From Schmidtea polychroa (taxonomy: Eukaryota): DNA of 64,000 bases. The DNA lies in contig CM097885.1 of NCBI GenBank assembly GCA_044892525.1, positions 5,086,001 to 5,150,000 on the forward strand. Direction: 5' to 3'. Below, piece after piece: positions 13,500 through 51,501 of this stretch. The notes beneath the pieces were generated by a model. That model saw only the letters and a program-made list of their open reading frames with translations. It was not told the DNA's origin and ran no database searches. The position numbers and the translations under genes are program-made. Position 1 is the stretch's first letter, and each line of letters begins with the position of its first letter.

Positions 13500-14060
13500 A
13501 AATCAAGACTTTACTGTGTGGTATCAACACTCGTATATCACTTGGTCTTGATGTGAGCACATCTTTATACAACTCGGACAATGCTTTACGAACCTCGTTA
13601 GCATCAATCTTTTTATCATAAAATATTAAATCTATATAATGTACTAGTGAACTAGCAAAATTAATATTCTTACTTTTGACTTTGTATGTTTTATGTGATT
13701 CAGTATCATGTTAATACCCATGTGACAAATCATAACTAGTCATTATAACATCATCCTTTTTAAGCTTACTATTATAATCACACTTCACGAACCACGAACC
13801 ATTTCATTGTTTGATCATCATCAGTAAATAAAAAGAAATATGGATCAATAATTTGTACAATCATAAAACAAGACCACTCTTTACTATTTGTTGTCATTGA
13901 AATTGGCTCTGTTAAATATTTATATGTATTAGGTAATGATGCATGATTCTCTTGTAATTCAGCAGCTCTTTTTCTAATGATGTGTGTAGGGTTAATATGT
14001 GTTGAGTGAGACTCTAAATTTGAAAGACTTTTATTAAATGATCTAATTATCTCATTTATT
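13500..14060 (-). pseudogene. Decayed ORF of unknown function, probably Polinton-1
   Basis: Coding-like minus-strand sequence with a few stops, directly upstream of the YPxL/PTAP gene and cut off by LTR copy B. Confidence 0.35.
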
Positions 14061-15471
14061 TGTATTATACATTGCGGGGTCGTCGGAGGTCGTACTGACT
14101 CAGTGGTATAGGCCACTGGGTTCGTCGATAAATTACCTCTGGTACGGCGGAGTTCTTAGAACTCGTTATCGTTACTATAGTATGGTAGTACATTACCGAA
14201 TCACACACATATTAGGGCTTGTCGTAGTGAGCACAGTGTGGCCACGAAAGCAAGCAACTTTCTTTAAATCGACTTTTCTCACGCATAATATACATATAAC
14301 GTACACACTAAAAATCAACACTAATACATTAACCTAGGTATGATAAACTGAGTAAAGCTCCAGACTCAAATTAATCACAATTCACAATTATTGTAGACGA
14401 TTAAATATCATCAAGAACAAACTCTACCTATAAGTTTGTCGAATCTAGATTTATAAATGTCCTAAATAAATTTTCTAGTAATAGTGTAAATTAAAGATTT
14501 TTTGAAATGATTGAATTAACAGTGATAGTATTCATAAAGGTGTTCGACATGCGTATCGGCAAGACTTGAATTTTAAATTGAATAGACTCTAAACTAACTA
14601 TGAAAAATAAAAATCGTAAACCCATAAAAGTATAAATTATAATCTCAATTATATAAAAATATGAATTATACTTATAGATTTAATTTCTTCAAAATATAAA
14701 TTATAATCCTAATTTCATAAAAATATAAATTATAATTAGTTATAAAAGCATAAATTATAAATTTAATTTTTTAAAAATATAAATTACAAATTTATAATGA
14801 CTGTAAAATTACAAATAATAACTCTAACTTAATGATAAAAGTATAAATTATAATACTAATTTCATAAAAATATAAATTATAATTAGTTATAAAAGTATAA
14901 ATTATAAATTTAATTTCCTAAAATTATAAATTACAAATTTATATTGACTATAAATTATAACTCTAAGTTGATTATAAAAGTATAAATTATAATCTCAATT
15001 TCTTAAAAATATAAATCATGAACTTATATTGATTATAGAATTATAAATTATAACTCTAAGTTAATTATAAAAGTACAAATTATAATCTTAATTTCATAAA
15101 AATATAAATTATAAACTTAAAAGTATAAATTATAAAATTATATTAGTTTAAAAAATATAAACTATAAATTTAATTTTATAAAAATATAAATTATAAACTT
15201 ATATTAGCTGTAAGAGTATAAATTATAATCTTAATTTGGTCATAAAAGTATAAAATATAAACTACGTTAGCGATAAAAAATATAATCTATAACCTCATAA
15301 TAAGTTGTAAATATTTCATAAACGACCCCCCAAGTTACGTAATCGTCGAAACAATTGTTCAGATTCATAATTTAACTTATATATGTATATTTGAAATTCA
15401 TAAAAGAATAACTTACATTTTTTCATAAGTAAACCCCTCAAACTATACATTAATCGAGAACAATGCATATA

Positions 15472-17167
15472 CCAGATAGTCTCGAAAGTAAGACCATGGT
15501 CTTACTTTCGAGTGGTCTTACTTTCGAGAAAAATAAAATTGATTTCCATTAAAAAATTATATATCCATATATATATATCCATTATATATCCAAAATTTTT
15601 ATATCCATATGACAAATACAAGACGATCATATACAGTTAAGTTTAAGCTGGATATACTTGAACGCTTGATTGTGAACAAGGGAAACATCAGTAAGACGGC
15701 ACGTGAAAACAATATAAATATATAAAACAATATGATTGGTTATACCAGAAGGATACTCTTTTGAGCGTAACCAGGAAAAATGTACTAAAGAAAGTGGGAT
15801 GTGGAAGAAAAGCCGAATTTCCAGAATTGGAAAAACTTTTGGTTGAATATGTTAAATTCGAAAGGAGGGTTTTCAAACGAGCAGTTTCCGTGTACCTTTT
15901 GAGACAAAAAGCAATGGAATATATAACTGCAAACAATTTGTCGCTTGTATTAAGTCAATGTTGGGTTCATAATTTCTTTAGAAGAAACAATCTATCCTAT
16001 CGTAAAATAACAAGCATTGGACAACAAGATAATGGAAGTCATTCCGAGATAAAGGAAATAATTACAAACCATTTAGAAAAAGTGAAAATTTGCCAAATGT
16101 ATGATGAAAGTAATATTTATAATATGGATGAAACACCCATTTATATAGATACTATGCCATCAAAGACTATAACTACCAAAGGTGAAAAAAATGTCGAAGC
16201 AAAGGGAACTGGGCACTGCAAAACACGTTTTTCAGTCGTGCTACTTATTTCAGCCAATGGAAAACTTCATAGAACTCTTGTGATTCTTAAAATATTGCGT
16301 AAAGTTCCCAAATGCTTTATTTTAAAAAATCTAATGGTAATTACATCTGAATCTGGAACGATGACAACAGAAATAATGAAAACGTGGATCCAAAATTGTT
16401 TTCCATGCGATAATATTTTTGGGCAAAACAGGAAAGCTGTAATTATTTTTGATAAGTTTAGTGCACATACAAGAAATGAAGTTACAGATCTTTTCACTCG
16501 ACTAATGTGAAAACAATTGAAATTCCGGAAAAAACAACTGCATTTTTACAGCCTCTTGATGTTGTTATTAATTTCATTTTTAAAAACGAATATAGAAAAA
16601 GATGGTCGGAATGGATGGCAAATGGGGATGCAAATTTCACTAAAATGGGATACAGGCAGAAACACTGTTGGGAAATTATATTCAAATGGGTATCTGAATC
16701 GGTTGATCAAATAAAGACCGAGAGTATACAAAAGGCATTTGTTTGTTGTGGCATTTTTGGGGTTAATCAAGACTATAACGGGGATTTGTTTAATAACAAT
16801 CTTAAACAAAAATTGATAGGTGTGGAAGCAGACGATGGTTTTGTTGTGGAAGAAGAATTATCTGAAGAGAAGGAGTATGTTGATTTTGGTGAATAAAAAT
16901 GATATCATGTTTCATTAAAAACACTGTGAATTCATATTCTATGTTTTAACTTTATTTATGTTCTGTTAAAGTGTATTTTGTTTTACAATTTTATTTTTAT
17001 GTCTTAATTTCCTCACATTTTTATTGATTTAACGAGAGCATAACAAGGGTTGGGGTATCATTCTCCACTCGAAAGTAAGACCGGTCTTACTTTCGATTTC
17101 TTTATTTCGCGTTGAAATCTATAAAAATTCGAAAGTAATACCTGGTCTTACTTTCGAGACTATCCGG
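15472..17167 (+). mobile_element. pogo-family (Tc1/mariner superfamily) DNA transposon
   Basis: TIRs CCAGATAGTCTCGAAAGTAAGACC / GGTCTTACTTTCGAGACTATCCGG, TA TSD, and repeated internal CGAAAGTAAGACC sites. Confidence 0.93.
15609..16896 (+). pseudogene. pogo transposase (BrkDBD-like, CENP-B HTH, DD35D), disrupted
   Basis: MTNTRRSYTVKFKL, FPELEKLL, WVHNFFRRNNLSYR, YNMDETP, IFDKFSAH..LQPLDV; a stop/frameshift near 15725 and a frameshift near 16505. Confidence 0.92.
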
Positions 17168-18499
17168 TAGTAATTAATTAACTTTTATATTTACAGTTAT
17201 CAAATTAAATAACTCCTCACAGCACATAACCATTAATTATTATCTAAATGCAGTAATTTAGACTATTTTACATGTATATTTAACTTACATTACCTTTACA
17301 ATAGAAATTTAGAAATTTTTTCATAAATAATCCTCTCATTTCCTATAACCATTAACCGCTACCTAAAACCATTAATTTAAACTATTTTATATATATACTT
17401 AACTTAGATTACCGGTAAATTGTAGTTGAAAATTTTCATCAAAGACCCCCCCCCGCCCCCCATAAACCATATAATCATCAACACCACCTAAATATACTAA
17501 ATTAGCTTATCTTAATATATATTTAACTTATATTATATTTAAAAAATGTAAATTGTAAATTTTTATGAATGACCCCCTCAAAATCATAGTCATTAACCAT
17601 TACCTAAGTATGCTAGATTAGCTTATCTTAATATATATTCAACTTATATTATATTTAAAAATATATTTTTGTAAATTTCCTAAATGACCCCCCTCAAATT
17701 ATATATTTATCAATAATTACACTAATATAGACTACTTAAATATGTATATATATATGTGTGTATATGTGTATATTTATCTTATATTTGATTTTAAAATGAT
17801 AACTCTTAAAATTATTACATGACCCCCAAGCTGTATACCCATGGTAATTTCATAAAGATATCAAGGTACATTCGCCGTTTATCATTATTGATATTGTTAT
17901 TATTATTAAACACCTTGGATCAAAATTTTATTTTTATTATTAATTGAAAATTTAATTTTGAAGTGGAATGAAATCTGGATAATTAAACTCAACTTTAGTT
18001 TAATCTGGATTCGTCTGAATTGAAATTAAGTAATAATTATCAGTGTTAAACGGTAAGTTAACTCAACATAAACCTGACTTATGTGTGGTATTTTAATAAA
18101 TAATTATTAACTTTCACTAGAAGGTTTCCAGGAAATGATTGCGTATGTGCCTGAATTAATGGAAATGATGTGTGTGGGAGATAAGCGGGATGAATAAATA
18201 ATGATATTGGGAAGACAATCTGGTGAAGGGATCAGGCAAAATCGGACGCAAGCCTTCTATCGGTAGTCCGTGAACCCAAAGGAGTGCCCGACAATTATAG
18301 TGTGGATAACGCGCTCACTTCTAGCGAGCACTCCCCCACTTGATACAGGACCAACGTTGATCACTCAATGGGTATCAAGCGGAGAAAAATGTTATTTGCA
18401 TTCTGGGTTACACTGGAAACAGCACGAAAGGGTAAAATGTATGCTTACCTGTAACCCACCAGAAGGAAGACAGATTTGGCAGAGATACTACCTGAAGTC

Positions 18500-18790: not shown

Positions 18791-18938
18791 TAAAGATAAA
18801 ATATAGAAACTAGTTTAACTTTAAACTGTTTATTAAACAACAATAATATAAACCTCAGGGGGATTCATGACCTTCTAGAATCAATTAAGATTAACGATAT
18901 AACATTTCATAAATCATTTCATTATAAAATTTTACAAT

Positions 18939-19455
18939 AGTAGGGTATTGTGTGGACCCGGGAACAAAGACATATGACGTCATCGATGACGTCACAAAGA
19001 CATATGACGTCATACCCCCGGGGGAGGGTTTTTTTTTAATTTTTTTTTTAAAATTTTTTTTAAAAATTCTTTTTTTAAAATTTATATTACGTTGCGGTAT
19101 TTTAAAATTTATTATATTTTAATTTTTAAATATATTACGTTGCAGTATTTTAAAAAACTTATTTTGACGGTTAAGTTGACAAAATTATTATTACACACAA
19201 TATAGTCTATCAGACAAGATATTCTGTCACATACAATGTATAAAAAATATTATTAGTGTCCACACACGCAACAAGTTAGTGTTCTCATCGATAGCTATTG
19301 ATATATTATTATTATTAATCTATATACTCCGAGTCTATCCGACAAAATATTCTGTCCCCTTATGGGTACTGCTCACAAGGGTACTGGTCACGCTCAACAA
19401 CTCGCAAGGGTACAATGATATTATTAAACAATGTAATAAAACACATATTTTCTAA

Positions 19456-19525
<70 letters not shown>
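18939..19525 (+). repeat. Left TIR of Polinton-2
   Basis: Reverse-complement match to 30440-30957, bounded internally by an (ATT)n tract. Confidence 0.93.
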
Positions 19526-19530
<5 letters not shown>

Positions 19531-19741
19531 ATTTCTATCATAAATCATGGTTAACAAAAAACATAGTCGAATATTATAAAATTAAGGTATTGTGTTAGCA
19601 CACACTCGTTATAATAATTAGCAATATAGTTTTTATGGTGTATCAAATCTAAACATTTCTTTTACATTTATAGTCTATCAACCAATCAAAATCATATGGT
19701 ATTAGTATAAATAAAACATTATATTTTAAATTATTTTAGAA

Positions 19742-20270
19742 ATGTCGCAACCAAATTTTATGGAAAATGTTTTAAACGGAATTGTCACCGCGAATATAGT
19801 CGACAGCCTCAATTTCCTGATCAATCGAACAGAACAAATCATTGAAGGTGAACATATCGATTATCAGCAGATGATGGAGACAGAATCCCTGGAAACCAAG
19901 AAGTATTACTTCAATAGAATATTTCAGTGTCTTTTCGATGAAGACATGAAATGGACAAGGATAATTGTAGGATTCACCTATATGAAGATAATCATTGCAA
20001 AAGGTCAACATGACTCAGAACATTATTATCAGTGGTCTTTAGAAGTAAGATTTCTTTTATAATTTATATTTTAATAATATTCATTTCTAGATAATCAAGT
20101 CCAAGTTTACCCCATGGATAGAAGCCAATGGCGGATGGGGTGTATTAAATAAACTGGCCTGCAATTTTAAAGAAACTGATGAAATCAAAAGAAAAATGAA
20201 AATCTATATAAAACTTACAACTGGAGTTGTTTTAATTTATATTTTCTGTAGATATATGAATAAAAATTAA
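19742..20270 (+). CDS. Bcl-2 family protein (160 aa; exons 19742-20044 and 20091-20270) carried by Polinton-2
   Basis: A 46-nt GTAAG..TAG intron restores an open frame with BH1-like LFDEDMKWTRIIVGF, BH2 WIEANGGW and a hydrophobic tail IYIKLTTGVVLIYIFC followed by RYMNKN. Confidence 0.8.
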
Positions 20271-20314
20271 TGTTATTGTTTTTAATAGTATATTTAAATG
20301 AAAATAATTCAATT

Positions 20315-20649
20315 TTAAAATTTATTAACACATTCGCAATCGTCATCTCCACATTTCATTATATTTTCAACGACATGATCAATACAATCATTCGTAATAT
20401 TATCTTTAGGTTCCTCTATAGGTTCATAGATTTCGTCATCAATTTCTTGAGTTTCTTCCTGATCGTCAAATCCTGAATCTTGACTCTCAACTACCCAGCC
20501 GATATTTTATGCATTTGTAACAGATAATATATCCTCAATTTTTACACCAGATATTTCTGCTAATTTTTCCAACAAAAAGTTGATTAATAATTCTAAATAA
20601 TAAATAATTCGGTATTTAATTAATCATGTTAACCTTTTTCTGCAGTCAT
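20315..20649 (-). pseudogene. Small acidic protein of Polinton-2 (intron 20633-20593, one internal stop)
   Basis: Spliced: MTAEKELLINFLLEKLAEISGVKIEDILSVTNA*NIGWVVESQDSGFDDQEETQEIDDEIYEPIEE..KCGDDDCECVNKF. Confidence 0.5.
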
Positions 20650-20782
20650 TTTCATCACTTTAAAACTATATTATAAGTTTGTTTATAGATTTTCTTTGTT
20701 AAATTTGCATGTCATTTGCATTAATGTTGCAATTAATAAAGAGAAAAAACAAATATGACTAATACATTTATTAAATATAACA

Positions 20783-21202
20783 TTAAAATAGTTGTGAAAG
20801 TCTAGCAGACATAATTTTCCAAATTGGAGAATATACATCATTATTATCAACTTTATATCTTTGGATTGCAATTGTTATATACCAATTTTCGTTTTCTTTG
20901 AAACCGATTTCATCAAAGGAATCATAAAATCTTGCATATCTGTTGTTGAACCATGCATGTTGATTACAAGATAGATTCGTATTCAACCGTTTGAAAACCT
21001 CATCAATAGATTTAATATCTATCATTGAAAGCGTGCCGGATAAGAATTGAAATTTAGTTGGAATTAGCTTGATCGGTGACGCCAATTTCATATTGATTTC
21101 TTCTTTTAAAAAATACATTTTATAGTTGTGGAACATTTGAACAGGTTGTACAAGTTCTGGAACAACTTTTGGCTTTTCAGTGCTTGAAATTTTCTTTGTC
21201 AT
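20783..21202 (-). CDS. Polinton-2 hypothetical protein (139 aa), possibly an OB-fold ssDNA-binding protein
   Basis: Intact ORF with upstream TATA and CCAAT; beta-rich aromatic C-terminus WYITIAIQRYKV..YSPIWKI. The fold is a guess. Confidence 0.6.
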   Translation of the reverse strand: MTKKISSTEKPKVVPELVQPVQMFHNYKMYFLKEEINMKLASPIKLIPTKFQFLSGTLSMIDIKSIDEVFKRLNTNLSCNQHAWFNNRYARFYDSFDEIGFKENENWYITIAIQRYKVDNNDVYSPIWKIMSARLSQLF

Positions 21203-21461
21203 CGTGAATTATGATTAAAATGAAATGGTACAGGGTTTTTATACCTATGACTATTGTTTATCAACCAATCAGATTGTTGTATGTCTTTGTTTAAATTGGA
21301 TGTCATTTGCATTAATGTTGCATTAATGTTTTTTATTATAAATATTGTTTTTTATTATTATTTCTAATATTACTTATATTATTACTATTTCTATTACTAT
21401 TATTATTATTTCTATTTCTATTATTTCGATTTACAAAAACAAAACAATTCAACATAAAAAT

Positions 21462-21844
21462 TTATTTTGATACAATCTGACTCGAGTGGTGATTTCTCAG
21501 AGTCTTCACCAAACACCATTCAACATATTGTTGATAACGGAAATTGCAACAGCTACATCCGAAAATGCAAGGAGCCTCTGCTTTCATTTCTTTCATCACC
21601 CTTCCTATCTTGATATCCCATAGAAAGGTGTTTATTATATCGAATATCCAGATTTGTGTTTGGTTGTATACCAAATCCGGAATGATAGCTGGATCTCTAT
21701 CTTGTAGAATTTCATTTAATTCTGGATAATAGAAGCATAATCTTTGCAGGATAATTGATTGATATTCATCTGTAAAAATTTGAAATTACCATAATTTGCA
21801 TGCTCTTTCATTGAGGTGATTGCGGAACTTTGTATGTTGTACAT
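21462..21844 (-). CDS. Polinton-2 hypothetical Cys-cluster protein (120 aa; putative 20-nt intron 21789-21770)
   Basis: ATG at 21844 joins in frame through GTAATTTCAAATTTTTACAG to ..QRLCFYYPELNE..PCIFGCSCCNFRY; TATA and CCAAT upstream. Confidence 0.5.
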
Positions 21845-21965
21845 TTTTGTTGAATAAATGACAACTAAACCGAAAACATTTTGTTATAAATAATCATCAG
21901 CCAATTAGATTTCGTCCAATCAGAATCATGCATTTCAATTGCATTGAATTTGCAATGATAAATAA

Positions 21966-22430
21966 TTAATTAAGTGATAATAAAAAATCTAAAAATTCAT
22001 TTCCTTCAATTATTGATTTAATTTCAGATATGATATTATCAACTATACATTTGTAATCAATATTTTTTATTTCAAGAATTACTATCTTACCGCTAGCGAA
22101 TATATTTACACACATAGGGTTATATTTTATATATCTCAAAGCTGGAAATAATTCTGGTTCGTAAAAGCATGGTATTAATTTAGCCAATTTATTTAAATTA
22201 CAAGAAAAACCTATATCGGAAGTTACGGTTATCGATTGTATTTCTAAATCATAAACATTATATTCACTAGCTTTGATTATTTCCTTACACCCCATAATTC
22301 TACATTTACCAGTTTTGAAATATATTATTGGATATATTTTACTTCTATTGATGAGTTGTTGTGGTTTCCCCATTGGAAATATCATTTTTGATACATCAGC
22401 CTTTGCCCTGTAATTTATATTTGAAAGCAT
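21966..22430 (-). CDS. TATA-binding protein (TBP)-like protein encoded by Polinton-2
   Basis: Two TBP-type repeats: NINYRA..IIYFKTGKCRIMGCK and EIQSITVTSDIGFSCNL..FYEPELFPALRY..PMCVNIFASGKIVI (compare TBP YEPELFPGLIY..LIFVSGKVV). Confidence 0.85.
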   Translation of the reverse strand: MLSNINYRAKADVSKMIFPMGKPQQLINRSKIYPIIYFKTGKCRIMGCKEIIKASEYNVYDLEIQSITVTSDIGFSCNLNKLAKLIPCFYEPELFPALRYIKYNPMCVNIFASGKIVILEIKNIDYKCIVDNIISEIKSIIEGNEFLDFLLSLN

Positions 22431-22534
22431 TTTAATGAAATAATTATAAAAAACTCAGTTATATATAGTTATTTTAAAAGGAGTTCATTTAAATTATCAA
22501 TATAAACAATAATTATATAGTTTAAATTTAAAAA

Positions 22535-23170
22535 ATGGAATTACGAAATGATGCAGTATACCAAATCGTTGGTCCAAGTGGTAGTGGAAAAACATTATTT
22601 GTTTGTAAATTACTAAAATCTAATTTGTTCAAAACAAAATTCAACAATATTTATTGGCATAGGGGCGCCGATGAAGAACATGGATTGACACAATCAAGTT
22701 TCTGTCAATTAAAAAACATGAAAATAGTAAAGGGTTTTGATAAAAACTGGTCAAGTCGTTTGAAGAAAGATGTCATCATTATCGATGATTTGTATCAAGA
22801 AGCCAATAAAGAAAAGGATTTTAATAATTTATTCACAAAAATCAGCAGACATGTTGGTGTAACAGTTATTTTCATAACACAAAATCTATTTCATCAAGGT
22901 GGGGCACATCGAACACGTAATTTAAATGTACAATATCTAGTTATTTTCAAGAATCCTAGAGATCCAACTGTCATTGATTTTCTTGGACGACAAGCATACC
23001 CTAATAACCGTAATTTTCTTATCAATGCATTTCAAGATGCTACGAAAGTACCTCATGGGTATATATTTCTCGATTTCACACAACAATGTCCTGATGATAT
23101 AAGGGTAAAAACAGATATTTTCAACCCAAAAGGTGCCATGGTTTATAAACAAAGTTCAAAACAAATTTGA
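22535..23170 (+). CDS. A32/FtsK-like DNA packaging ATPase
   Basis: Walker A GPSGSGKT, Walker B IIIDD, FTKISRH, IFITQNLF, VIFKNPRD, PHGYIFLD. Confidence 0.95.
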   Translation: MELRNDAVYQIVGPSGSGKTLFVCKLLKSNLFKTKFNNIYWHRGADEEHGLTQSSFCQLKNMKIVKGFDKNWSSRLKKDVIIIDDLYQEANKEKDFNNLFTKISRHVGVTVIFITQNLFHQGGAHRTRNLNVQYLVIFKNPRDPTVIDFLGRQAYPNNRNFLINAFQDATKVPHGYIFLDFTQQCPDDIRVKTDIFNPKGAMVYKQSSKQI

Positions 23171-23183
23171 AAACACATAAATC

Positions 23184-23678
23184 ATGTTTTCAAAAACAAG
23201 GATATCGAGTAAAAAACAACCAAAAGTTCCACCAACAACTAGTTATACTCCATCTAAAGAACTTATTACAGAAAATTTTCCTGCAATGAATCTTATTTCG
23301 AAAAATCCTAAACCTAAACCTAAAAGTAAAACCACTAAGAAAGTAAAAGTTGTTAAAAATCATCGGAGTTTCTCGTTTTTCAATACATTGTTAAAGGCAC
23401 CAAGTATGAAAAGAAACAGTATTTTGCAATCTTTTCCAAATTATGTTGTCGATGATTTACTCGATATTATACTTAAAGTAGTCAAAGGCAAGATTAAAAT
23501 CAGTAAATCTAAAAAGCAATTATTGAGTAAACATAGGAAACCTTTGCTATCATTAGTAAATAATAAAAATCGTCAACAAGTGAGAAAAATTATATATAAA
23601 CAACAAGGGGGATTTATCGGTGCATTGATACCTTTAACAATATCATTATTAGGTGAAATAATAGGAAGTCGATCATAA
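23184..23678 (+). CDS. Basic Polinton virion core-like protein with a C-terminal QQGGF motif
   Basis: Lys-rich 164 aa ending QQGGFIGALIPLTISLLG, resembling an adenain cleavage site followed by an amphipathic peptide. Confidence 0.7.
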   Translation: MFSKTRISSKKQPKVPPTTSYTPSKELITENFPAMNLISKNPKPKPKSKTTKKVKVVKNHRSFSFFNTLLKAPSMKRNSILQSFPNYVVDDLLDIILKVVKGKIKISKSKKQLLSKHRKPLLSLVNNKNRQQVRKIIYKQQGGFIGALIPLTISLLGEIIGSRS

Positions 23679-23681
23679 ACA

Positions 23682-23909
23682 ATGGGTGCTAATCCTTCAT
23701 TACCAGACATTAAATTTTATATTAAATCTTCTTGTTGTAATGGAGAAGATTTGGACGAACCCCGAAGACGAAGCCGGTTTCGGTGGAGTGGCAAAATTAA
23801 ACAAAAGAGTTCCGAATTCGAAAAAAGAAACCCAGAAGTGGTTATCAGACCAGCTTGCGTACAGTTTGAACAAACCAATGCAGAAACGATTCCCAACAAG
23901 AGTATATAA
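23682..23909 (+). CDS. Small overprinted ORF, putatively myristoylated and palmitoylated
   Basis: MGANPS (G2/S6 myristoylation consensus), SSCC and an Arg cluster; starts 4 nt after the upstream stop and overlaps the integrase in another frame. Confidence 0.5.
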   Translation: MGANPSLPDIKFYIKSSCCNGEDLDEPRRRSRFRWSGKIKQKSSEFEKRNPEVVIRPACVQFEQTNAETIPNKSI

Positions 23910-24140
23910 AACATATGGAATAAATGATTTATGGCAAATAGATTTGATGGAGATGATACCTTATTCGAAAATTAACAATGGGTATAAATATATTTTAACA
24001 TGTATTGATGTATTCAGTCGGTTTGCCCGAGCAATACCTGTCAAGGCAAAATCTGCAGATGAAATGTCTAAAGCTGTTAATGATTTATTTAAAGATGGAC
24101 ATCCTAATAACTTGCAAACGGATTTAGGTATTATTATTAC

Positions 24141-24210
<70 letters not shown>

Positions 24211-24711
24211 TTAGGTAAAGAATTCTACAATAGCAAATTCAAGCAAATCCTCAATAAATTGAAAATAAATCACTACTCAGTACATTCTCAATACAAAGCT
24301 GCCCATGTTGAAAGATTTAATCGAACATTGAGAGATAGATTAAAGAAATTGTTCGTGCATCAAGGTAATAAAAAATGGGTAAATGCTTTACCGAAAATAT
24401 TAACAAGTTATAATTATTCATCACATTGAGGACTGATTGGATTGAGACCGGTTGATATTACATCAAAAACATTCTATTCTAAAATATCTGTAAAAATTGC
24501 AAAACCTAAATATAAAGTCGGTGACCATGTTAGAATTAGTAAAATTAGTGCATCACCATTTATTAAAAATTTTGATACAAATTGGAGTGATGAAGTCTTT
24601 ATAATTTCAAAAATAAATACTAAACAGAATCCTGTAATGTATGTCATCAGCGATTATGATAACAATATTGTACAAGGAAAATTTTATGAGCAAGAATTAC
24701 AAGTTAAGTGA
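23740..24711 (+). pseudogene. Retroviral-like (c-)integrase of Polinton-2; intron 24128-24214; one premature TGA
   Basis: WQIDL, YILTCIDVFSRFA, LQTDLG|KEF, KAAHVERFNRTLR, YNYSSH*GLIGLRP, KYKVGDHVRIS, NWSDEVF, GKFYEQELQ. Confidence 0.93.
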
Positions 24712-25682
24712 ATTTTTATACTATTTTACCAAGCAATAGTTGCCCGCTTATTCATCCAGATAATCAAGCCATTAAATTCATGGTCAATCTCCAGAATCCG
24801 ATTTCTTTAAATGGTGACTGGGAATTTGCACTGCAAGATTTTACATTCGTGTACAATACATTCCCATTTTATAGTCAATGTAAGATTGATTTCAAAAGGA
24901 ATGCTATGAAAACATGTAGTGGTATCTTTATTATCAGTAATTATGATAAAACATATCATATTCCGAATCAAATATTAGATCCGCATTACTCTATGTTTTA
25001 CAAGGATGGATTAAATATCAGTTGTGATTTTAAACCATTTACAATAACATTCGAATATATTGAAGATGCCAAACGATTGGGTTGCAATAAGTTGAAAAAT
25101 GAAGTTATGGAAACAGAATATTTATTACGCTTTAATCTATTTGAAGCAAACAGTGTAATGAGAGAAGAAATCAAAATATCAGTGTCGTATAATAATGAAG
25201 TTTAAGAATCATTTACCTTTGCTGATGAATTATATTTTGATAAACTTGATGTGTTACTTAAATATTTAAAGTACAATTGTTCACACATATTTAAAAGTTT
25301 GGACATTGTGAAAGATTTGATGTTTACATTCAGTTTGAATGATGATATTTGCGAAGTTACATTTGATAAAAATTTGACAAATACACTTGGATTAGAGAAG
25401 CAGCAATATCGGGAAAAATCGGCTGGTATACATAAACCAAGAATACTTGAACATCATCAACAAATGTTCATATATACTAATATTATTGAGCCTATAATTG
25501 TTGGTGATTCCAGTGTTCCTCTATTGAAATCGGTGTGGATTGGAAAATATGAACATGATGAAGTTGTCAATATAAATATAGATAATCCCATGTATTTACC
25601 AATTTCAAGCTCATGTATAAACAATATAGAAATAAATATTCGTGACGATAGTGGAAAATATAAAATGATGATTGCTTGGTAG
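24708..25682 (+). pseudogene. Minor capsid (penton)-like protein; one in-frame stop, C-terminus apparently truncated
   Basis: FYTILPSNS..P.N...F...L..PI.L.GDWEFAL and MFIYTNIIEPIIVGDSSVPLLK..PMYLPI....NNIEINIRDDSG. Confidence 0.85.
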
Positions 25683-26183
25683 CAGCATTTATTATTTAAA
25701 ACAATAAAATGATAATTTAAGCCTTTTGCTGCAAATAATGTATTTAATGAAAGAATTTTCGACTATACGATAGTCCTTGTCAATCTCCTGGAATTTAGCA
25801 ATGTTCTTCCCCAAATACCTTTCAATCTTTCTTTTATTTCCATTCTCTTAATTCTCATTGGTTGTAAATATAATGAATTGTTTTACTAAAAACTTTTAAA
25901 ATTTTTACATTTAAAATTTCAAAATGACACAAACTAAAAATTTTTAAATTTTTTACAGCTTCTATAATTAGCTTCTAGAAGCCTAAATAAAAATATGTGA
26001 AAATATTTTAAATAAAGCCTCCAATAACTACTTATATATGCTATTTAAATATTTCAATAAATGTGTCAATATTGATTTTCAAACCCTATTTTTTAAAATT
26101 TTTTTTTTATATTATTCTAATTATTACTTTTTAATTTATTCTATTTTTTTAATTTCTTTATATATTGTCAGTTATTCTCAAAG

Positions 26184-28060
26184 TCAATGACAACAGATCA
26201 AATTCAAGATTTCATTGATTTTTTCTTTAGTGTTGATCTTTGGCTGTCTGTTTATGATGAGAATTGCTTCTTTGATTCTGACATTTTTCTTTTGGATGTT
26301 TCCATTAGCTATGATTTCTATTGAAATATTTTTTCTTTCTTCTGTTGGCTGACACTGCCGGAGATGTCTGCCCAACGAGGATGTTCCCCCAGGATCTAGA
26401 TGTTCTTTAAGTCTTTGGTGCAATGTCCTGAGGGTTCTTCCAATGTAGATTTCATTGCATACATTGCACGTGATGCAATTGACGATGTTTTTTCTAAAGC
26501 ACATATCTTTCGGTGTCTGGCAGTTTTTCATTGTGCAATTGTTTTCTCTATTTATGTTGCCTGCCAGAGCCCTTCTCAATGTCCAAGATTTATGTGCTAT
26601 CCGAATTGGAAGACCGGTACGTTTAAGTTCTTTCAGGATCTTGAAGTCGAGTATGTCACTGATGAATGGGATATTCAGATAGAAATATTTCTGATTCTTT
26701 TGTGTTAATTCCCTAGATCTTCTTGGGGTAGAATTCATTCTTTCAATGTCCTCACCTTGGTATCCGTTTCGGCGTAGGATTTTATTGAAATTTGATTGCT
26801 CTTTAAAGTTTTCGTTTTTCTCCGTGCATCGATTGGCTATTCTTCGTTTCTCGTTTCTTATGACATGTACTTTCTGTAAGTATGGAAGCGCTGATCTTTG
26901 GTGCATAAATATTTCTTTGCGAGCTGGTTTTCTGTAGAACCCGTATGTTGGAGTATTTTCTTCTATTTTGATTCTCAAATCCAATAAATTGAGGGATCCA
27001 TCTTCTTCCGGATATTCGATTTCGAACTTAATATCTTGATGAGCCGCATTGAATGTATGAAATATTTCCTCCGCTTCTTTTTTGTTTTTGGTCGTGATGA
27101 AGATATCATCTACATATCTTGCATAGAAACCGATGGGTTGTATGGTCCTCAGTGTCTGTCGTTCGAGGTTATCCATAAAGATGATTGCTAGCAGTCCTGA
27201 TATGCTAGAACCCATAGGCAGACCTTTAACTTGTTTATAGATATTTTGTTCAAAGGTAAAATAGGTGTTCTCGAGGATAACAGTAAGTAGTTTGGTGATA
27301 TTCTCGATATTCATTTCCTTTTTTAACAAGTTGCTTTCTCTTAATTTCTTTTCTAAACATTGAATAGCCTCTGTTGGTTCGATAGATGTGTATAGTGATA
27401 CGACATCAAGACTAAATGGGTATTGGAATTCTCTATGACAAATCAAGTTATTATTTAGTCTTGTCATGAGGCAGTCGCTGCTTTGAAGATGGTGTGGTAT
27501 CGTGTCTAATAAAGGTTTCAAGATCTTTGCAAGGAGCCAACTTGTTTTAGTTGTTGGTCCATTTTTGTTGGACACTATAGGTCTAATTTTGATACCAGGA
27601 CCCTCTTTGTGAGTTTTAATTAGGTGGTAGAAGTTAGGAAGATCAGAATTTTTTGTGACGAAGCTGTTGGTTATTCTGTTGTTGAGCCTCATTTCCAAAG
27701 CTATGGCTTTCCATACTTTGTTGATCTTCATTTCGATGGTGTTTGGTGACATGCGGCTGACTTTCTTGTATGTTTCGATGTTGCCGAGGTGTTCGTAACC
27801 AGCTTCACAGTAACGATTCTTCTCTATAATGCAAAATTCTCCCCCCTTGTCACTTGGTAAGTAGACGTACGGTTTCTTTTTAAGGGATTTTAATATTGCC
27901 TGTTCGTCTTTCGTTAGGTTTGAGAGATATGGTTTTCTTCTTTCCTTCTCAACTATCTCCATGATTTTGTGACAGACCTTTGAGAGTGTTGAATCTAATT
28001 CTGCATCAGGATTTGGTTGATAGAGTTTATCTGTGTTTATGTATACTGGGAGCTGGTTTT
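26184..28060 (-). mobile_element. Penelope-like retroelement (RT + GIY-YIG), 5'-truncated; open 592-aa ORF at 27962-26184
   Basis: SDKGG, LIKTHK..IRPIVS, FSLDVVSLYTSI, GLPMGSSIS, RYVDD, LNLLDL, FYRKP, CNVCNEIYIGRT.R.L..R..EH, KEAILI..QPKIN. Confidence 0.95.
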
Positions 28061-28065
28061 CGCTA

Positions 28066-30256
28066 TTTTCATTTTCATATGTAAATAAATTAAAATCATG
28101 TAAAATTCAATTTTGTCTAAAGGTGGAATTTATAAAAGATGATGAGTTACAATCTTTTGTAATCTCGGATTCCGCCCGAGTTTGGAGCGATACATTCATT
28201 GACGAAGGTATTGCTCGTTTAAATGAAAAAATAATTAAAATTAATGAGAAAGGTAGTAATTGGACTATCAATAAAATAGAATACATAAGCCTTTCATTGG
28301 CCTTTCAAAATATCATTCATGGAATATTAGTTGTATTCCTTTAACCAGCGAGAAATTCCTTAGTCTTTTTGCTAGGATTGACTCATTAACTGTTAAATTT
28401 ATAGACTCTTATCAATTTGTCAGCGAGTCTTTAAATAATGCTGTCAAAACTTTATCATCTTTACCCTTGACCGAATCAGAATTTCAGGGTACAATAATAT
28501 CTGCAAAGGGATTTTTCCTTATGATGCCGCAACTTCATTAGAGGTTTTACATAACACTCGTCAGTTACCTCCTATTTGGAAAGATGTGACTCCCGCTGAA
28601 TATGAGACAGCTCAGCGAATTTGGGTTGAAACTTCATGTACTTCACTTTTCGATTACATGATGGTTTATTTAAAACTTGATGTTTTCCTTTTAGCCGATT
28701 TTTTCCAGCAATTTAGAGCTAAGTCCATTGCTCATAACCGACTAGAGCCATTAAATTTCTTAGGGATTCCAGGTATGTCTTGGAATTCAGCCTTATTAAC
28801 TTTAAGCTCTCCAATTGAGCTCCTCACCGATATGGAGATGTATAACTTTTTCGAGGGCGGTATCCGTGGCGGACTAACTTTTGTAAATAAACATTATGTA
28901 AAAACAGACCCGGATACCGCTTTACTTTACATAGATATAAATAATTTATACGGTTGGGCTTTAAGTCAACCATTACCTTGCAGTGACTTTGAATGGGTTA
29001 CTGATGATAATTTATTAAATAATATAATTTTTGAATGCACAACGGTAGATTTAGATCTGCTTGATTATGGTTATACCATAGAAGTGGATTTAGAAATACC
29101 GACGTCAATTCACGACAAACTGGACGATCTTCCCGTTGCCGCTGAAAAGATGTGTGTACCAGGTTCGAAAATAGAGAAGCTGTTGCTTACACACAGCCCC
29201 AAGAGGAACTATGTTCTTCATTGAAGGCTTCTACAAATATTTATTAAATTAGGTGTTAAAATATCAAAAACACATAGAGCAATTAAATTTAAACAAGATA
29301 AAATTTTCAAAAATTATATTAACACAAATACGGCGTTACGAGCAGCGTCGACAAATAAACTCGATAAAAATTTTTATAAATTATTAAACAACAGTCTTTA
29401 CGGCAAGACTGTTGAAAATCTTAAAAAACGTATTAATTTACGTCTGTGTAATTCTTCACAGAGATTATTAACATTCTGTTCGAAACCGACTTTTCGTAAA
29501 TCCACGAAAATCGATGATGACTTGATTTCGGTTTTATTGAGGAAGGACATAGTGTGTTTGAATAGACCTAGTTACATTGGTCAAACCGTACTTGATTTAT
29601 CCAAACTTCGCATGTACCAGCTGCAGTATGAAGAGTTGCAAAAATATCGCGACGAATTCAACTGCGAAATTAATATTGTTGCTGGAGACACAGATTCCTT
29701 CTTCTTGGAAATTAAACATTGTAGTCTTGACATTCTTTTACCTGCGATGATTAGAGATCAATTATTAGATACTTCGAATTATGACTCAAATCATCCTTTA
29801 TATAGTAGGAACCTTGATTCTGTCATTGGTAAATTCAAAGACGAGAATAAAGGGTTATTATATAAAGATTGGGTGTTCTTGAGACCTAAATGTTACAGTT
29901 TGATGGGTGATGAGGAAAGTATGAAGGCTAAGGGGATAAGTATGAAAGATACTGGACTAACACATCAGTCGTATCTAGATTGCTATTTAAATGATAAAAT
30001 ATACACAGTCCCTCAGTTTAGAATAACGTCAAAAAATCACCAACTTTTTAGTATTAAAAATAATAAAAGAGCCTTGACATGTAGAGATGATAACCGAAAT
30101 TGGGTGAATAAAAATCAAAGTTTGGCATATGGCCATTATAATGGCGGTGACACCGATATATTTATAGATTCAACGAAAGCTATCTCAGCAGATGATACAG
30201 ATGATTTCCATGATCCAGCAGATGATAATTATTTTGGACATGATTATTTTCGATGA
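28066..30256 (+). pseudogene. Polinton-2 pPolB DNA polymerase, N-terminally deleted
   Basis: KGSNW, FIDSYQF, KGIFPY, YLKLDVFLLAD, GIRGG, YIDINNLYG, YKLLNNSLYGKTVEN, LDLSKLRMY, GDTDS, GKFKDE, LRPKCYS, KAKGI; one frameshift, one TGA and an internal deletion near 28320. Confidence 0.95.
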
Positions 30257-30439
30257 TGTGTTTAAATTATTTAATAAATGTATTAGTCATATTGTCTTGA
30301 ATATTTTTTTAACAGTAACTTTGTGAACAATTTTTTTTATACATTGTGTGTGTAATAATATTATGTTTAAGTTTTGTTAGTTACCTTTATGACCTTTACC
30401 CAGTGTGTTTTGTGACCTTTACCTTTGTGAGCAGTACCC

Positions 30440-30511
<72 letters not shown>

Positions 30512-30957
30512 TTAGAAAATGTGTTTTATTACATTGTTTAATAATATCATTGTACCCTTGCGAGTTGTTGAGCGTGACCAGTACCCTTGTGAGCAGTACC
30601 CATAAGGGGACAGAATATTTTGTCGGATAGACTCGGAGTATATAGATTAATAATAATAATATATCAATAGCTATCGATGAGAACACTAACTTGTTGCGTG
30701 TGTGGACACTAATAATATTTTTTATACATTGTGTGTGACAGAATATCTTGTCTGATAGACTATATTGTGTGTAATAATAATTTTATCAACTTAACCGTCA
30801 AAATAAGTTTTTTTAAAATACAGCAACGTAATATAAATTTAAAAAAAAATATTTAAAAAAAAAAACCCCTCCCCCGAGGGGTATGACATCATATGTCTTT
30901 GTGACGTCATCGATGCCGTCATATGTCTTTGTTCCCGGGTCCACACAATACCCTACT
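30440..30957 (-). repeat. Right TIR of Polinton-2
   Basis: Inverted match to the left TIR. Confidence 0.93.
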
Positions 30958-31199
30958 TACAATCTTTTGTTTTTTTGTTCCAATGATATTTCAATTTTTC
31001 TCTCTGGTCTTCAAATTGTTTAGTTAATTTAATTTTTGACAGACGATACATCTTAAGCAACGATCATGGTAAAAAGATCTGAAGAAACGTGGGAAAACTT
31101 AAAAGGAAGATTGAAATTTGTTTAAATAACACACAAATAGAAGATATAAAATATTTGAGTGCATAATTTATTAAATAAAATTTATGGAGTTATTTAGTA

Positions 31200-39034: not shown

Positions 39035-39116
<82 letters not shown>

Positions 39117-51249: not shown

Positions 51250-51416
51250 TTAAAATTCATTAATAATAATATTGGTAATAATAATACGATAATGTTACGA
51301 ACAACAATAGTAATATTAATAATGGCAATAATCATAATGATAATAATGATAATAATATTAATAATGACAGCCAAACGGATAATAATCTTAATAATAATGA
51401 TAATAATAATAATAAT

Positions 51417-51501
<85 letters not shown>

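What the first reader, a model, noticed from the sequence alone, without database searches (positions are those of the whole stretch)
21966..22430. A Polinton that encodes its own compact TBP-like protein
Seen: an intact 154-aa ORF with both TBP repeats, inside the TSD-bounded element and head-to-head with the packaging ATPase across a 104-bp spacer containing TATATATA (22460-22467). Repeat 2 keeps the YEPELFP stirrup; repeat 1 is shortened. Known: the acidic residues of that stirrup bind TFIIB in cellular TBP; TBP homologues occur in giant DNA viruses but are not part of the standard Polinton gene set. Inference: a viral-type basal transcription factor or decoy that redirects host Pol II to the element's promoters. 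I do not know of a description in animal Polintons, but could not search.
Basis: partly seen in the sequence, partly recalled or inferred. Interest (0 to 1): 0.9.

Follow-up and report, generated by a model that had tools for sequence, protein, structure and literature searches.

The report
Polinton-encoded minimal TATA-binding protein homologue
A virus-like transposon that fills this animal genome carries its own stripped-down copy of the cell's TATA-binding protein, and the same gene sits beside the packaging ATPase in a whole lineage of such elements whose genes share one TATA-like promoter word, so the element probably runs its own promoter code.

Summary
Window 21966-22430 (-) is an intact 154-aa ORF with a Pfam TBP hit (51 bits, cut-off 22.9). 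Its model (pLDDT 95.4) superposes on the whole TBP saddle (Z 12.6). It lies in a TIR- and TSD-bounded Polinton (18939-30957), head-to-head with the A32-like ATPase.

It is not a host TBP fragment. The family sits across a 100/99-supported branch from archaeal and eukaryotic TBPs and from the host's own TBP-like genes.

It is not single-copy. At least 150 near-identical copies were scored of 4104 candidates. Two further subfamilies in the genome are 52-60% identical, with dN/dS 0.16-0.35. About 80 metagenome loci carry it, and 18 of 25 informative ones have it just upstream of the ATPase.

The architecture is new: a complete C-terminal repeat with an invariant E-P-E-(L)-F stirrup, and an N-terminal repeat that keeps its strands but lacks both helices.

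I also found an oriented motif, YATAAACA, 30-50 nt upstream of most genes. It is the top enriched 7-mer in host and metagenome elements and is absent from loci with distant TBP-likes.

Best reading (about 0.6): an element-specific core-promoter factor. Binding is untested. The only prior mention found is a 'TBP' label in one figure legend for non-animal relatives.

The parts
18933..18938 (.). Left target-site duplication TACAAT
   Evidence: Read directly from the sequence. The same hexamer flanks the right end.
18939..19527 (.). Left terminal inverted repeat, starting AGTAGGGTATTG. It holds three TGACGTCA palindromes at 18975-19012.
   Evidence: repeat pairs I15 (92%), I1 (99%) and I18 (98%) pair it with 30440-30957. 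Sequence.
19742..20062 (+). 106-aa ORF with a weak Bcl-2 family match (left arm)
   Evidence: PF00452, E 8e-4, 20.4 bits, below the 31.4 cut-off. TATAAAT lies about 35 nt upstream in the fuller copy.
20783..21202 (-). 139-aa ORF of unknown function (left arm)
   Evidence: no family match. It is conserved in other copies. TATAAAAA lies upstream.
21966..22430 (-). TBP-like gene (TBPL), 154 aa. The N-terminal half-repeat has no helices. The C-terminal repeat is complete and carries YEPELFP.
22460..22467 (-). TATATATA, 30-37 nt upstream of the TBPL ATG. Candidate TATA box of TBPL's own promoter.
   Evidence: A (TA)n run is kept in the 154-aa and 170-aa subfamilies but not in the 156-aa one.
22501..22508 (+). 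TATAAACA, 34 nt upstream of the ATPase ATG. One instance of the lineage-wide YATAAACA promoter word.
   Evidence: (ATATAAACAA invariant in 7 of 7 spacers from three subfamilies)
22535..23170 (+). A32-like genome-packaging ATPase, 211 aa
   Evidence: PF04665, E 2.3e-7, 31 bits against a cut-off of 22.8
23184..23678 (+). 164-aa ORF of unknown function, with TATAAACA 40 nt upstream (23144)
23740..24429 (+). rve integrase remnant, interrupted by an (ATT)n-type microsatellite near 24129-24258
   Evidence: (PF00665, E 5e-8). The intact form is 366 aa in another copy.
24780..25682 (+). Two ORF fragments of the 355-aa gene that follows the integrase in fuller copies
   Evidence: window 24702-25664 aligns to the p355 region of L122
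26184..27962 (-). Penelope-like retroelement ORF (RT + GIY-YIG) inserted where about 4 kb of the Polinton is missing
   Evidence: PF00078, E 1.6e-14; PF01541, E 1.1e-3; no match to the fuller copy over 25665-28076.
28658..30256 (+). Fragments of the protein-primed family-B DNA polymerase
   Evidence: PF03175, E 9.8e-7; aligns to the PolB region of L123, with a 1.1-kb deletion.
30440..30957 (.). Right terminal inverted repeat
30958..30963 (.). Right target-site duplication TACAAT
   Evidence: reverse complement read

Best explanation
TBPL is a conserved gene of one Polinton (adintovirus-like) lineage. It is a minimal homologue of the TATA-binding protein.

It keeps the DNA-binding beta-sheet saddle and the complete C-terminal repeat, including the acidic stirrup that cellular TBP uses to dock TFIIB. 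It has lost both helices of the N-terminal repeat. In cellular TBP that surface is used by TFIIA, NC2, Mot1, TAF1 and Brf1 (recalled knowledge, not tested here).

The most likely mechanism is as follows. TBPL is made from its own TATA-type promoter. It then binds the oriented YATAAACA word that sits 30-50 nt upstream of the ATPase, integrase and virion-module genes. Through its stirrup it recruits host TFIIB and Pol II. This would give the element a private core-promoter code that is insulated from host TBP regulators.

Shown here: homology, fold, conservation, synteny, copy number, purifying selection, and the promoter word with its position, orientation and lineage restriction.

Inferred: DNA binding, the match between TBPL and the word, TFIIB recruitment, and the early/late split.
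For: Homology and fold:
- Pfam TBP match at 51 bits against a cut-off of 22.9.
- PDB phmmer finds 35 TBP sequences, the best 2z8u at 2.7e-14.
- AF2 model with pLDDT 95.4 and pTM 0.83.
- All 44 Foldseek PDB hits at E<=1e-3 are TBPs.
- VIA gives Z 12.0-12.6, rmsd 2.3-2.9 A over 139-143 of 154 residues, spanning both TBP repeats. The next non-TBP hit is at Z 6.1.
- hhalign of the family against cellular TBPs gives probability 99.1 and E 5.5e-19.

Functional residues (41 sequences):
- E91, P92, E93 and F95 are invariant and L94 is at least 90% conserved. This is the stirrup.
- F38 and F111 are invariant. These are the positions of three of TBP's four DNA-kinking Phe (F38, F95, F111).

Conservation:
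- 79 relatives at E<=1e-3 among 96 candidates.
- 631 cluster representatives at E<=1e-3 and 87 at <=1e-10.
- dN/dS is 0.16-0.35 between the three subfamilies in this genome.

Synteny:
- In 18 of 25 metagenome loci with at least 1.5 kb downstream, the ATPase follows on the same strand within 2.5 kb.
- 19 of 27 loci of at least 4 kb hold an ATPase, rve integrase or pPolB.

Promoter word:
- ATAAACA is the top enriched 7-mer at -80..-10: 72 observed against 7.5 expected over 280 ORFs of 38 metagenome loci, and 16 against 1.1 over 34 ORFs of 4 host loci.
- 65 of 148 upstream hits lie 30-49 nt from the ATG. Sense to antisense is 132:17 and 22:4.
- It is present in TBPL clades A and B (51/6.5 and 39/2.7). 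It is absent from 16 loci with only distant TBP-likes (1/0.6), whose top word is TATATAA.
- ATATAAACAA is invariant in the TBPL-ATPase spacer of all three subfamilies, while the flanks vary.
Against: - No binding of DNA or of TFIIB was tested. The complex job was not run by the tool.
- The motif-TBPL link is correlational. No close relative of these elements that lacks TBPL could be found as a control: 0 ATPase relatives in IMG/VR. Group C differs from A and B in every respect, not only in its TBP-like gene.
- ATAAACA also fits the forkhead RYAAAYA core (recalled), so a host factor could read it.
- The position aligned with TBP's first kinking Phe is Leu26 here and a variable hydrophobic residue in the family. 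The S1' contact positions are Ser66 and Thr68 instead of Asn and Val (their roles are recalled).
- The ORF sets were mechanical (first ATG, at least 90 aa), so only 96 of 279 and 18 of 34 ORFs carry the word at -15..-80.
- dS between subfamilies is saturated (1.05-2.4), so the omega values are rough.
- The 147 of 150 intact copies were chosen by best score and are young, so their intactness says nothing about selection.
- The window's own copy sits in a dead element.
Confidence: 0.6

Rival explanations
1. Decoy or dominant-negative. TBPL does not activate the element's genes. Instead it sequesters host TFIIB, or occupies host TATA boxes without supporting assembly, because it lacks the TFIIA/TAF-binding lobe. 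This would damp host or competing-virus transcription.
For: The stirrup is invariant while the whole upper surface of the N-terminal lobe is missing. This is the architecture expected of a competitor. The left arm also carries a host-interaction-type gene, a weak Bcl-2-like ORF.
Against: A decoy does not explain the conserved, positioned and oriented promoter word that tracks the TBPL clades. It also does not explain the tight synteny with the morphogenesis genes. The DNA-facing sheet and three of the four Phe positions are conserved, which pure TFIIB sequestration would not need.
Confidence: 0.15
2. The promoter word is read by a host factor, either forkhead-type or ordinary TBP on a TATAAA-like box. 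TBPL then has another transcription-related role, for example at the canonical TATA boxes of the left arm.
For: ATAAACA equals the forkhead core RYAAAYA (recalled). In clade A and the host copies the word is mostly TATAAACA, which contains a near-canonical TATAAA.
Against: In clade B the preferred form is CATAAACA (28 observed against 2.0 expected), which breaks the TATA box yet keeps position and orientation. The peak at 30-49 nt from the ATG and the 132:17 strand bias fit a core-promoter element better than an enhancer site. The word is shared by elements at 32-41% GC that probably come from different hosts.
Confidence: 0.15
3. Non-transcriptional DNA-binding role. A TBP-fold saddle would be reused to bend DNA at the termini or origin, during protein-primed replication, integration or packaging. 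The gene sits beside the packaging ATPase.
For: There is constant adjacency to the packaging ATPase. The TBP-like fold also turns up at low score in replication initiators (RepDE, Z 6.1).
Against: The homology is to TBP itself at sequence level, with the TFIIB stirrup invariant. The TIRs of the window element show TGACGTCA palindromes, not the promoter word. No YATAAACA was listed within 18939-19527 or 30440-30957.
Confidence: 0.08
4. A recently captured host TBP fragment or pseudogene that drifts neutrally and is carried along by a successful transposon.
For: The window copy lies in a dead element. Within-subfamily copies are too similar (about 97-99%) to show selection.
Against: The host TBP exon is a typical metazoan TBP, 83% identical to an annelid TBP. 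TBPL shares only 39% identity over 70 aa with such a TBP. In the tree, TBPL and its relatives sit on one side of a 100/99 branch, away from 7 eukaryotic TBPs, 2 host TBP-like ORFs and 14 archaeal-type TBPs. Omega is 0.16-0.35 between subfamilies. There are 20 invariant columns across 41 sequences.
Confidence: 0.02

Closest known systems
Cellular TATA-binding protein (TBP; Pfam PF00352), eukaryotic and archaeal
   Same: Sequence homology is above the Pfam cut-off. The saddle fold superposes at Z 12.6 over 141 residues. The C-terminal repeat has the E-P-E-L-F stirrup, and three of the four kinking-Phe positions are kept.
   Different: It is 154 aa rather than about 180 for the core. The N-terminal repeat lacks H1 and nearly all of H2 and has a shortened stirrup. 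The S1' contact positions are Ser/Thr rather than Asn/Val. It is a separate clade. It is carried by a mobile element in hundreds to thousands of copies.
'TBP' gene labelled on MELD-virus maps with adintovirus-like PolB (Starrett et al. 2021, PMC8502044, Fig. 5 legend; section 3.4 and passages read; the figure itself is not held)
   Same: A TBP-like gene in a midsize linear dsDNA virus or Polinton relative with PolB and integrase. The same paper notes Bcl2 homologues in adintoviruses, and the window element has a weak Bcl-2-like ORF.
   Different: That label concerns elements from non-animal datasets and comes with no analysis. I could not see which element carries it or whether it is the same family. 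'TBP' and 'TATA' do not occur in the one supplementary file held as text.
Herpesvirus late-gene TBP mimic (KSHV ORF24 / EBV BcRF1 / HCMV UL87) reading TATT promoters (PMC12529657, PMC7498053, PMC4893493: search listing and abstracts only)
   Same: It works like what I propose: a virus-encoded TBP-fold protein that reads a non-canonical TATA variant upstream of late or structural genes of a nuclear DNA virus and brings in host Pol II.
   Different: Those are large proteins that mimic TBP structurally and contact Pol II directly. BFVD matches to them are weak (BcRF1 E 9.3e-3 with TMq 0.35; U58 E 1.6e-3 with TMq 0.45). TBPL is a true sequence homologue with the TFIIB stirrup. No partner genes of a vPIC type were identified here.
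TBP-like proteins of giant viruses (Nucleocytoviricota; for example ASFV B263R, PMC5825884: listing and abstract only)
   Same: They are viral TBP homologues. 19 BFVD models match at E<=1e-3, the best being the Heterosigma akashiwo virus TBP at 2.0e-7.
   Different: Those viruses bring their own RNA polymerase and are mostly cytoplasmic. Their TBP-likes are 190-550 aa with two repeats. They match TBPL less well than cellular TBPs do.

Membership tests
TBP family (Pfam PF00352) | Sequence match above the curated gathering score | tested here: met
   51 bits against 22.9, E 1.4e-13; hhalign against cellular TBPs gives probability 99.1.
TBP family (Pfam PF00352) | Saddle fold built from two tandem halves | tested here: met
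   Z 12.0-12.6, 139-143 residues aligned, model range 1..~143 on chain ranges that span both repeats; all 44 hits at E<=1e-3 are TBPs.
TBP family (Pfam PF00352) | Two complete S1-H1-S2-S3-S4-S5-H2 repeats (canonical TBP core) | tested here: not met
   the N-terminal half has four strands, no H1 and a four-residue H2; only one Pfam stretch. H2 of repeat 1 aligns to a gap. It is therefore a homologue with a variant architecture, not a canonical TBP.
TBP family (Pfam PF00352) | C-terminal stirrup residues that contact TFIIB/TFB (E-x-E-L in Y-E-P-E-L-F; their role is recalled from the TBP-TFIIB literature) | tested here: met
   E91, P92, E93 and F95 are invariant and L94 is at least 90% conserved in 41 sequences. 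Only presence in the sequence was tested; binding was not.
TBP family (Pfam PF00352) | Four DNA-kinking phenylalanines | tested here: inconclusive
   F38, F95 and F111 are invariant. The position aligned with the first Phe is L26 here and a variable hydrophobic residue in the family.
TBP family (Pfam PF00352) | Binds and bends TATA-box DNA | not testable with these tools
   Needs EMSA or footprinting.
Polinton / Maverick | Protein-primed family-B DNA polymerase | tested here: met
   PF03175, E 9.8e-7, on window 28658-29221 (fragment). There are longer PolB ORFs in another copy and 7.4e-24 in metagenome relative L083.
Polinton / Maverick | Retroviral-type (rve) integrase | tested here: met
   PF00665, E 5e-8 (interrupted here). 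It is 366 aa and intact in L122.
Polinton / Maverick | Long terminal inverted repeats and a 6-bp target-site duplication | tested here: met
   TIRs of about 590 and 520 bp, and TACAAT on both sides.
Polinton / Maverick | A32/FtsK-like packaging ATPase | tested here: met
   PF04665, 31 bits against 22.8.
Polinton / Maverick | Double and single jelly-roll capsid proteins and adenain-like protease | not tested
   The candidate virion-size ORFs had no Pfam match at E<=1e-3. No structure was predicted for them. In the window copy this module is largely deleted.
Herpesvirus vTBP (ORF24/BcRF1/UL87 family) | Homology to that family | tested here: inconclusive
   There are only weak BFVD fold matches (E 1.6e-3 to 9.3e-3, TMq 0.35-0.45). 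This is used as a functional analogy only.

The most novel reading that the evidence does not exclude
A lineage of Polintons or adintovirus-like viruses, including a family that has colonised an animal genome in hundreds to thousands of copies, runs a private core-promoter code. Its own minimal TBP would read YATAAACA in place of the host TATA box and dock host TFIIB. Because it lacks the N-lobe helices, it would be blind to the host's TBP regulators (TFIIA, NC2, Mot1, TAFs). The motif variant (TATAAACA, CATAAACA, or none) tracks the TBPL clade. This would be a small, genetically tractable virus-specific pre-initiation system built from a true TBP homologue. It would also be a natural experiment in how little of TBP is needed for promoter recognition.
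Probability: 0.4. Interest if true: 0.8.

Novelty: new variant of a known kind. Interest (0 to 1): 0.66.

Why it matters
Polintons and adintoviruses are thought to replicate in the nucleus with host Pol II, and nothing is known about how their genes are switched on. Three things would follow if this reading is right.

- A conserved element-encoded TBP homologue, together with a shared, positioned promoter word, gives the first concrete and directly testable model of Polinton transcription.
- It offers a sequence signature (TBPL plus YATAAACA) for recognising this lineage in genomes and metagenomes.
- It provides a naturally minimised TBP: saddle plus one stirrup, with no N-lobe helices. That is useful for asking which TBP surfaces are needed for promoter recognition and which for regulation.

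It also shows that virus-encoded TBP-like factors are not confined to giant viruses and herpesviruses.

Tried and rejected
- **Complex prediction.** I asked for TBPL with a near-host TFIIB core (P0346, residues 105-308). 
- **RNA evidence.** No RNA holder was listed. Contigs of four runs whose RNA label is only a guess were laid. One 345-nt contig covers 21984-22328 inside TBPL. One run shows poly(A)-like loose ends at 22815 and 23325. This is a weak hint at most that the family is transcribed. It says nothing certain about this copy.
- **Control elements without TBPL.** A scan of IMG/VR with the ATPase alignment gave 222 pattern matches and 0 confirmed relatives. The TBPL alignment found only one weak IMG/VR locus. 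No clean control was obtained.
- **Earlier findings of this scan.** Nothing was found by place or by sequence.
- **ESM Atlas.** It returned only generic TBP clusters.
- **Within-subfamily dN/dS.** Copies differ by about 5 of 465 nt, which is too few to use. The ungapped ATPase comparison in that call is spoiled by a 3-nt indel and was not used.
- **Literature.** 'Polinton' + 'TATA-binding protein' gave 5 papers. 'Maverick' + 'TBP' + 'transposon' gave 5. 'adintovirus' + 'TATA' gave 4. 'Polinton' + 'TBP' as whole words gave 6. 'polinton-like' + 'TATA-box binding' gave 2. Only the adintovirus paper and its preprint concern such a gene. Term searches inside PMC10748475, PMC8097293 and 10.64898/2026.06.19.733378 found no TBP or TATA.
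- **Origin of the family.** Whether it derives from eukaryotic or archaeal TBP cannot be told from an unrooted tree with a long connecting branch.
Full report

Yes. Window 21966-22430 on the minus strand is an ATG-started, stop-free ORF of 154 aa. Pfam-A gives PF00352 (TBP) at E 1.4e-13, 51 bits against a gathering score of 22.9, as one stretch over aa 62-125. phmmer against all PDB sequences returns 35 distinct sequences, all TBPs or TBP fusions, the best being M. jannaschii TBP at 2.7e-14. Residues 61-140 align to both repeats of archaeal TBPs, and residues 1-60 are not matched.

YEPELFP is at aa 90-96. The ATPase ATG is at 22535, so the spacer is 104 bp, and TATATATA is at 22460-22467. In DNA of 27-29% G+C an ORF of this length with such a profile match is not chance.

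**2. The element.**

Inverted repeats pair 18939-19527 with 30440-30957 at 92-99%. The ends read AGTAGGGTATTG... on both strands and are flanked by TACAAT at 18933-18938 and 30958-30963.

The element contains, in order:
- a weak Bcl-2-like ORF (E 8e-4, below the cut-off);
- a 139-aa ORF;
- TBPL;
- an A32-like ATPase (31 bits against 22.8);
- a 164-aa ORF;
- an rve integrase broken by a microsatellite;
- two fragments of a 355-aa gene;
- a Penelope-like RT/GIY-YIG ORF on the opposite strand;
- pPolB fragments.

I compared it with a fuller copy elsewhere in the genome (L122+L123). The window copy is 97.4% identical over 19475-24706. It lacks about 4 kb (virion module and the start of PolB), replaced by 2.4 kb that carry the retroelement ORF. 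It lacks a further 1.1 kb of PolB. So this is a Polinton by PolB, integrase, ATPase, TIRs and a 6-bp TSD, but this copy is dead. The TBPL ORF is intact here because the copy is young, not because this locus is under selection.

**3. Fold and architecture.**

I aligned 40 relatives with the window protein (A1). The AF2 model has mean pLDDT 95.4 and pTM 0.83.

- In Foldseek against the PDB, all 44 hits at E<=1e-3 are TBPs (best 4.5e-9), and the next hit is at 0.023.
- VIA-align gives Z 12.0-12.6, rmsd 2.3-2.9 A over 139-143 residues. The model range 1..~143 maps onto chain ranges that span the whole TBP core. The first non-TBP is at Z 6.1.
- Secondary structure of the C-terminal half is the full S1'-H1'-S2'-S5'-H2' repeat. 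The N-terminal half has four strands (2-10, 25-28, 35-38, 42-48), no H1, and a four-residue remnant of H2.
- hhalign of the family against 17 cellular TBPs (probability 99.1, E 5.5e-19) aligns aa 19-139 to both repeats and puts H2 of repeat 1 opposite a gap.

'Both repeats' holds for the sheet only.

Family-invariant residues include E91, P92, E93 and F95 (with L94 at least 90%), F38, F111, and G41-x-C43-R44-x-M46-G47.
- From recalled TBP literature, E-x-E-L of this stirrup is the TFIIB contact.
- Also from recall, F38, F95 and F111 correspond to three of the four kinking Phe.
- The fourth position is L26 here.
- The S1' positions that contact the minor groove in TBP are Ser66 and Thr68 here.
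- By recall, the missing helices form the surface used by TFIIA, NC2, Mot1, TAF1 and Brf1.

**4. Not single-copy and not a host fragment.**

The own-genome search (781 Mb, 1012 contigs) gave 4104 first-look candidates. All 150 that were scored are 95-100% identical over the full length, and 147 of the 150 have no internal stop. These are the best-scoring ones, so their intactness is a biased figure.

A PF00352 search of the genome gave 2998 candidates. It showed:
- a typical intron-containing metazoan TBP, 83% identical to an annelid TBP;
- intronless two-repeat TBP-like ORFs (P0081, P0082);
- two more Polinton subfamilies whose TBPLs are 156 and 170 aa, each head-to-head with an ATPase.

TBPL shares 39% identity over 70 aa with animal TBP repeat 2.

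I built a tree of 57 rows. The rows were 28 family members chosen; 6 unnamed two-stretch relatives; 14 archaeal-type TBPs labelled by NCBIfam; 7 eukaryotic TBPs; and 2 host TBP-like ORFs. All other hits were left out. The family plus the 6 unnamed rows sits on one side of a 100/99 branch from all cellular TBPs. The three host subfamilies lie in one 98/92 clade, interleaved with metagenome sequences. The tree is unrooted, so the donor domain is open.

**5. Selection and mosaicism.**

Pairwise Nei-Gojobori estimates between subfamilies give omega 0.16-0.35 for TBPL, but dS is saturated at 1.05-2.4, so the values are rough. The neighbours give 0.04-0.05 for the ATPase, 0.11-0.17 for the integrase and 0.18-0.37 for p355.

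Between the 154-aa and 170-aa subfamilies, TBPL is only 53-55% identical (dS about 2). The adjacent ATPase, integrase and p355 are 92-93% identical (dS 0.70, 0.25 and 0.21). The left arm with TBPL has therefore been exchanged between lineages, or is far older than the rest.

**6. A lineage-wide, syntenic gene.**

The word-indexed search found 79 relatives at E<=1e-3 among 96 candidates. Nearly all are 101-270 aa and unnamed or auto-named TBP. The exhaustive search found 631 cluster representatives at E<=1e-3, 87 at <=1e-10 and 3 at <=1e-30.

In the metagenome scan, 84 of 113 pattern matches were confirmed and 80 loci were kept.
- Pfam on the four longest loci shows the order TBPL, (small ORF), A32-like ATPase, (small or zinc-finger ORF), rve+chromo integrase, virion-size ORFs, pPolB.
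- Over all loci, 79 of 80 hit the family HMM. The ATPase is in 26 loci, the integrase in 18 and PolB in 8.
- Of 25 loci with at least 1.5 kb downstream of TBPL, 18 have the ATPase on the same strand within 2.5 kb, 2 have it elsewhere and 5 lack it.
- Of 27 loci of at least 4 kb, 19 carry at least one hallmark gene.

The head-to-head orientation seen in the window is thus particular to the elements of this genome. The adjacency itself is ancient. IMG/VR holds one weak relative only.

**7. A promoter word.**

While reading upstream regions I saw ATAAACA repeatedly. An unbiased 7-mer count over -80..-10 of mechanically called ORFs confirmed it.
- It ranks first in 38 metagenome loci of at least 3 kb: 72 observed against 7.5 expected over 280 ORFs.
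- It ranks first in 4 host loci: 16 against 1.1 over 34 ORFs.
- ATAAAC lies 15-80 nt before the ATG in 96 of 279 and 18 of 34 ORFs.
- 65 of 148 hits within 200 nt fall at 30-49 nt.
- Sense to antisense is 132:17 and 22:4.
- The logo is [T/C]ATAAAC[A/G][A/T].

In the window, TATAAACA sits 34 nt before the ATPase ATG and 40 nt before the next ORF. CATAAACA sits 66 nt before the integrase ATG. Over the whole window the word is not enriched (21 against 16.6 expected), but 10 of the 21 matches lie in the 12-kb element. ATATAAACAA is invariant in the TBPL-ATPase spacers of 7 copies from three subfamilies, while the flanks vary.

I split the loci by TBPL similarity:
- Clade A (48 loci): TATAAAC 52 against 5.0.
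- Clade B (15 loci): ATAAACA 39 against 2.7, with CATAAAC 28 against 2.0.
- 16 loci with only distant TBP-likes: ATAAACA 1 against 0.6, and the top word is TATATAA at 11 against 1.0.

The three left-arm genes of the host element (Bcl-2-like, p139 and TBPL) instead have canonical-looking boxes: TATAAAT, TATAAAAA and TATATATAA. This suggests, but does not show, an early set driven by host TBP and a TBPL-driven set.

**8. Mechanism and rivals.**

The best reading (about 0.6) is an element-specific core-promoter factor that reads YATAAACA and docks host TFIIB.

The rivals are:
- a decoy (0.15);
- the word being read by a host forkhead-type factor or by ordinary TBP (0.15; the word fits RYAAAYA by recall);
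- a replication or packaging DNA bender (0.08);
- a drifting host fragment (0.02, refuted).

No binding was tested. The TBPL-TFIIB complex job was not run by the tool, and no run on record as RNA was available.

**9. What is known.**

Viral TBP homologues are known in giant viruses. One search gave 19 BFVD matches at E<=1e-3, and ASFV B263R is described in PMC5825884 (abstract only). Herpesviruses use a TBP mimic on TATT late promoters (PMC12529657, PMC7498053, PMC4893493; abstracts only).

For Polinton relatives, five full-text searches found only Starrett et al. 2021 and its preprint. [quoted passage not shown] The figure is not held, so I cannot say which element carries it. Neither 'TBP' nor 'TATA' occurs in the supplementary text held.

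The new points are:
- the 1.5-repeat architecture;
- the lineage-wide synteny;
- the massive endogenous presence in an animal genome;
- the associated promoter word.

I rate this a new variant of a known kind, with interest 0.66.

Noticed in passing
window 18975-19012 (mirrored in the right TIR near 30885-30925): Each TIR carries three TGACGTCA (CRE/ATF-type) palindromes within about 40 bp of the element end. This is reminiscent (by recall) of ATF sites near adenovirus ITRs. They could be terminal promoter or enhancer elements, or replication elements.
   Followed up: no
window 19742-20062 (+): A 106-aa left-arm ORF has a weak Bcl-2 family match (PF00452, E 8e-4, below the cut-off). It is conserved in other copies. 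Adintovirus Bcl2 homologues are mentioned in PMC8502044.
   Followed up: partly
window 25665-28076, ORF 26184-27962 (-): A Penelope-like retroelement ORF (RT + GIY-YIG, 592 aa, intact) is inserted in the Polinton where about 4 kb of virion module and PolB is missing.
   Followed up: partly
L122 vs L118/L121 (own genome): The Polinton subfamilies are mosaic. ATPase, integrase and p355 are 92-93% identical (dS 0.2-0.7), but the adjacent TBPL is only 53-55% identical (dS about 2). This indicates exchange of the left arm between lineages.
   Followed up: partly
own genome C3:38.2-39.1 Mb and C1:23.85-24.19 Mb: At least 13 copies of an intronless 301-310-aa open frame with a TFIIB-like cyclin repeat (E 1e-6 to 1.5e-8) lie in clusters. 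This is either a multi-copy TFIIB-like gene family or a gene carried by another mobile element. It is possibly a second case of an element-borne basal transcription factor.
   Followed up: no
own genome L115 2073-2714 (-), L117 2339-2944 (-), L116: There are intronless two-repeat TBP-like ORFs (214 and 202 aa; P0081, P0082) besides the canonical intron-containing TBP (L112). In the tree they fall on the cellular side as long branches. They could be TRF/TBPL-type paralogues or retrogenes.
   Followed up: partly
window 8051-18393: A large nested set of inverted repeats (pairs I2-I14, 75-96% complementary, arms up to 348 nt) lies just upstream of the Polinton. It is another repeat-rich or foldback-like element.
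   Followed up: no
window 24129-24258; also 39028-39116 and 51402-51513: The same (ATT/AAT)n-type microsatellite that interrupts the integrase recurs elsewhere in the window and inside other Polinton copies.
   Followed up: no
L083 3994-4395, L087 8996-9394, L039 225-719, L087 7052-7909: Metagenome relatives carry other accessory genes next to TBPL. These are a parvovirus-type phospholipase A2 domain (E about 7e-11), a ubiquitin-conjugating enzyme, a KilA-N protein, C2H2 zinc-finger proteins and a RING finger.
   Followed up: no
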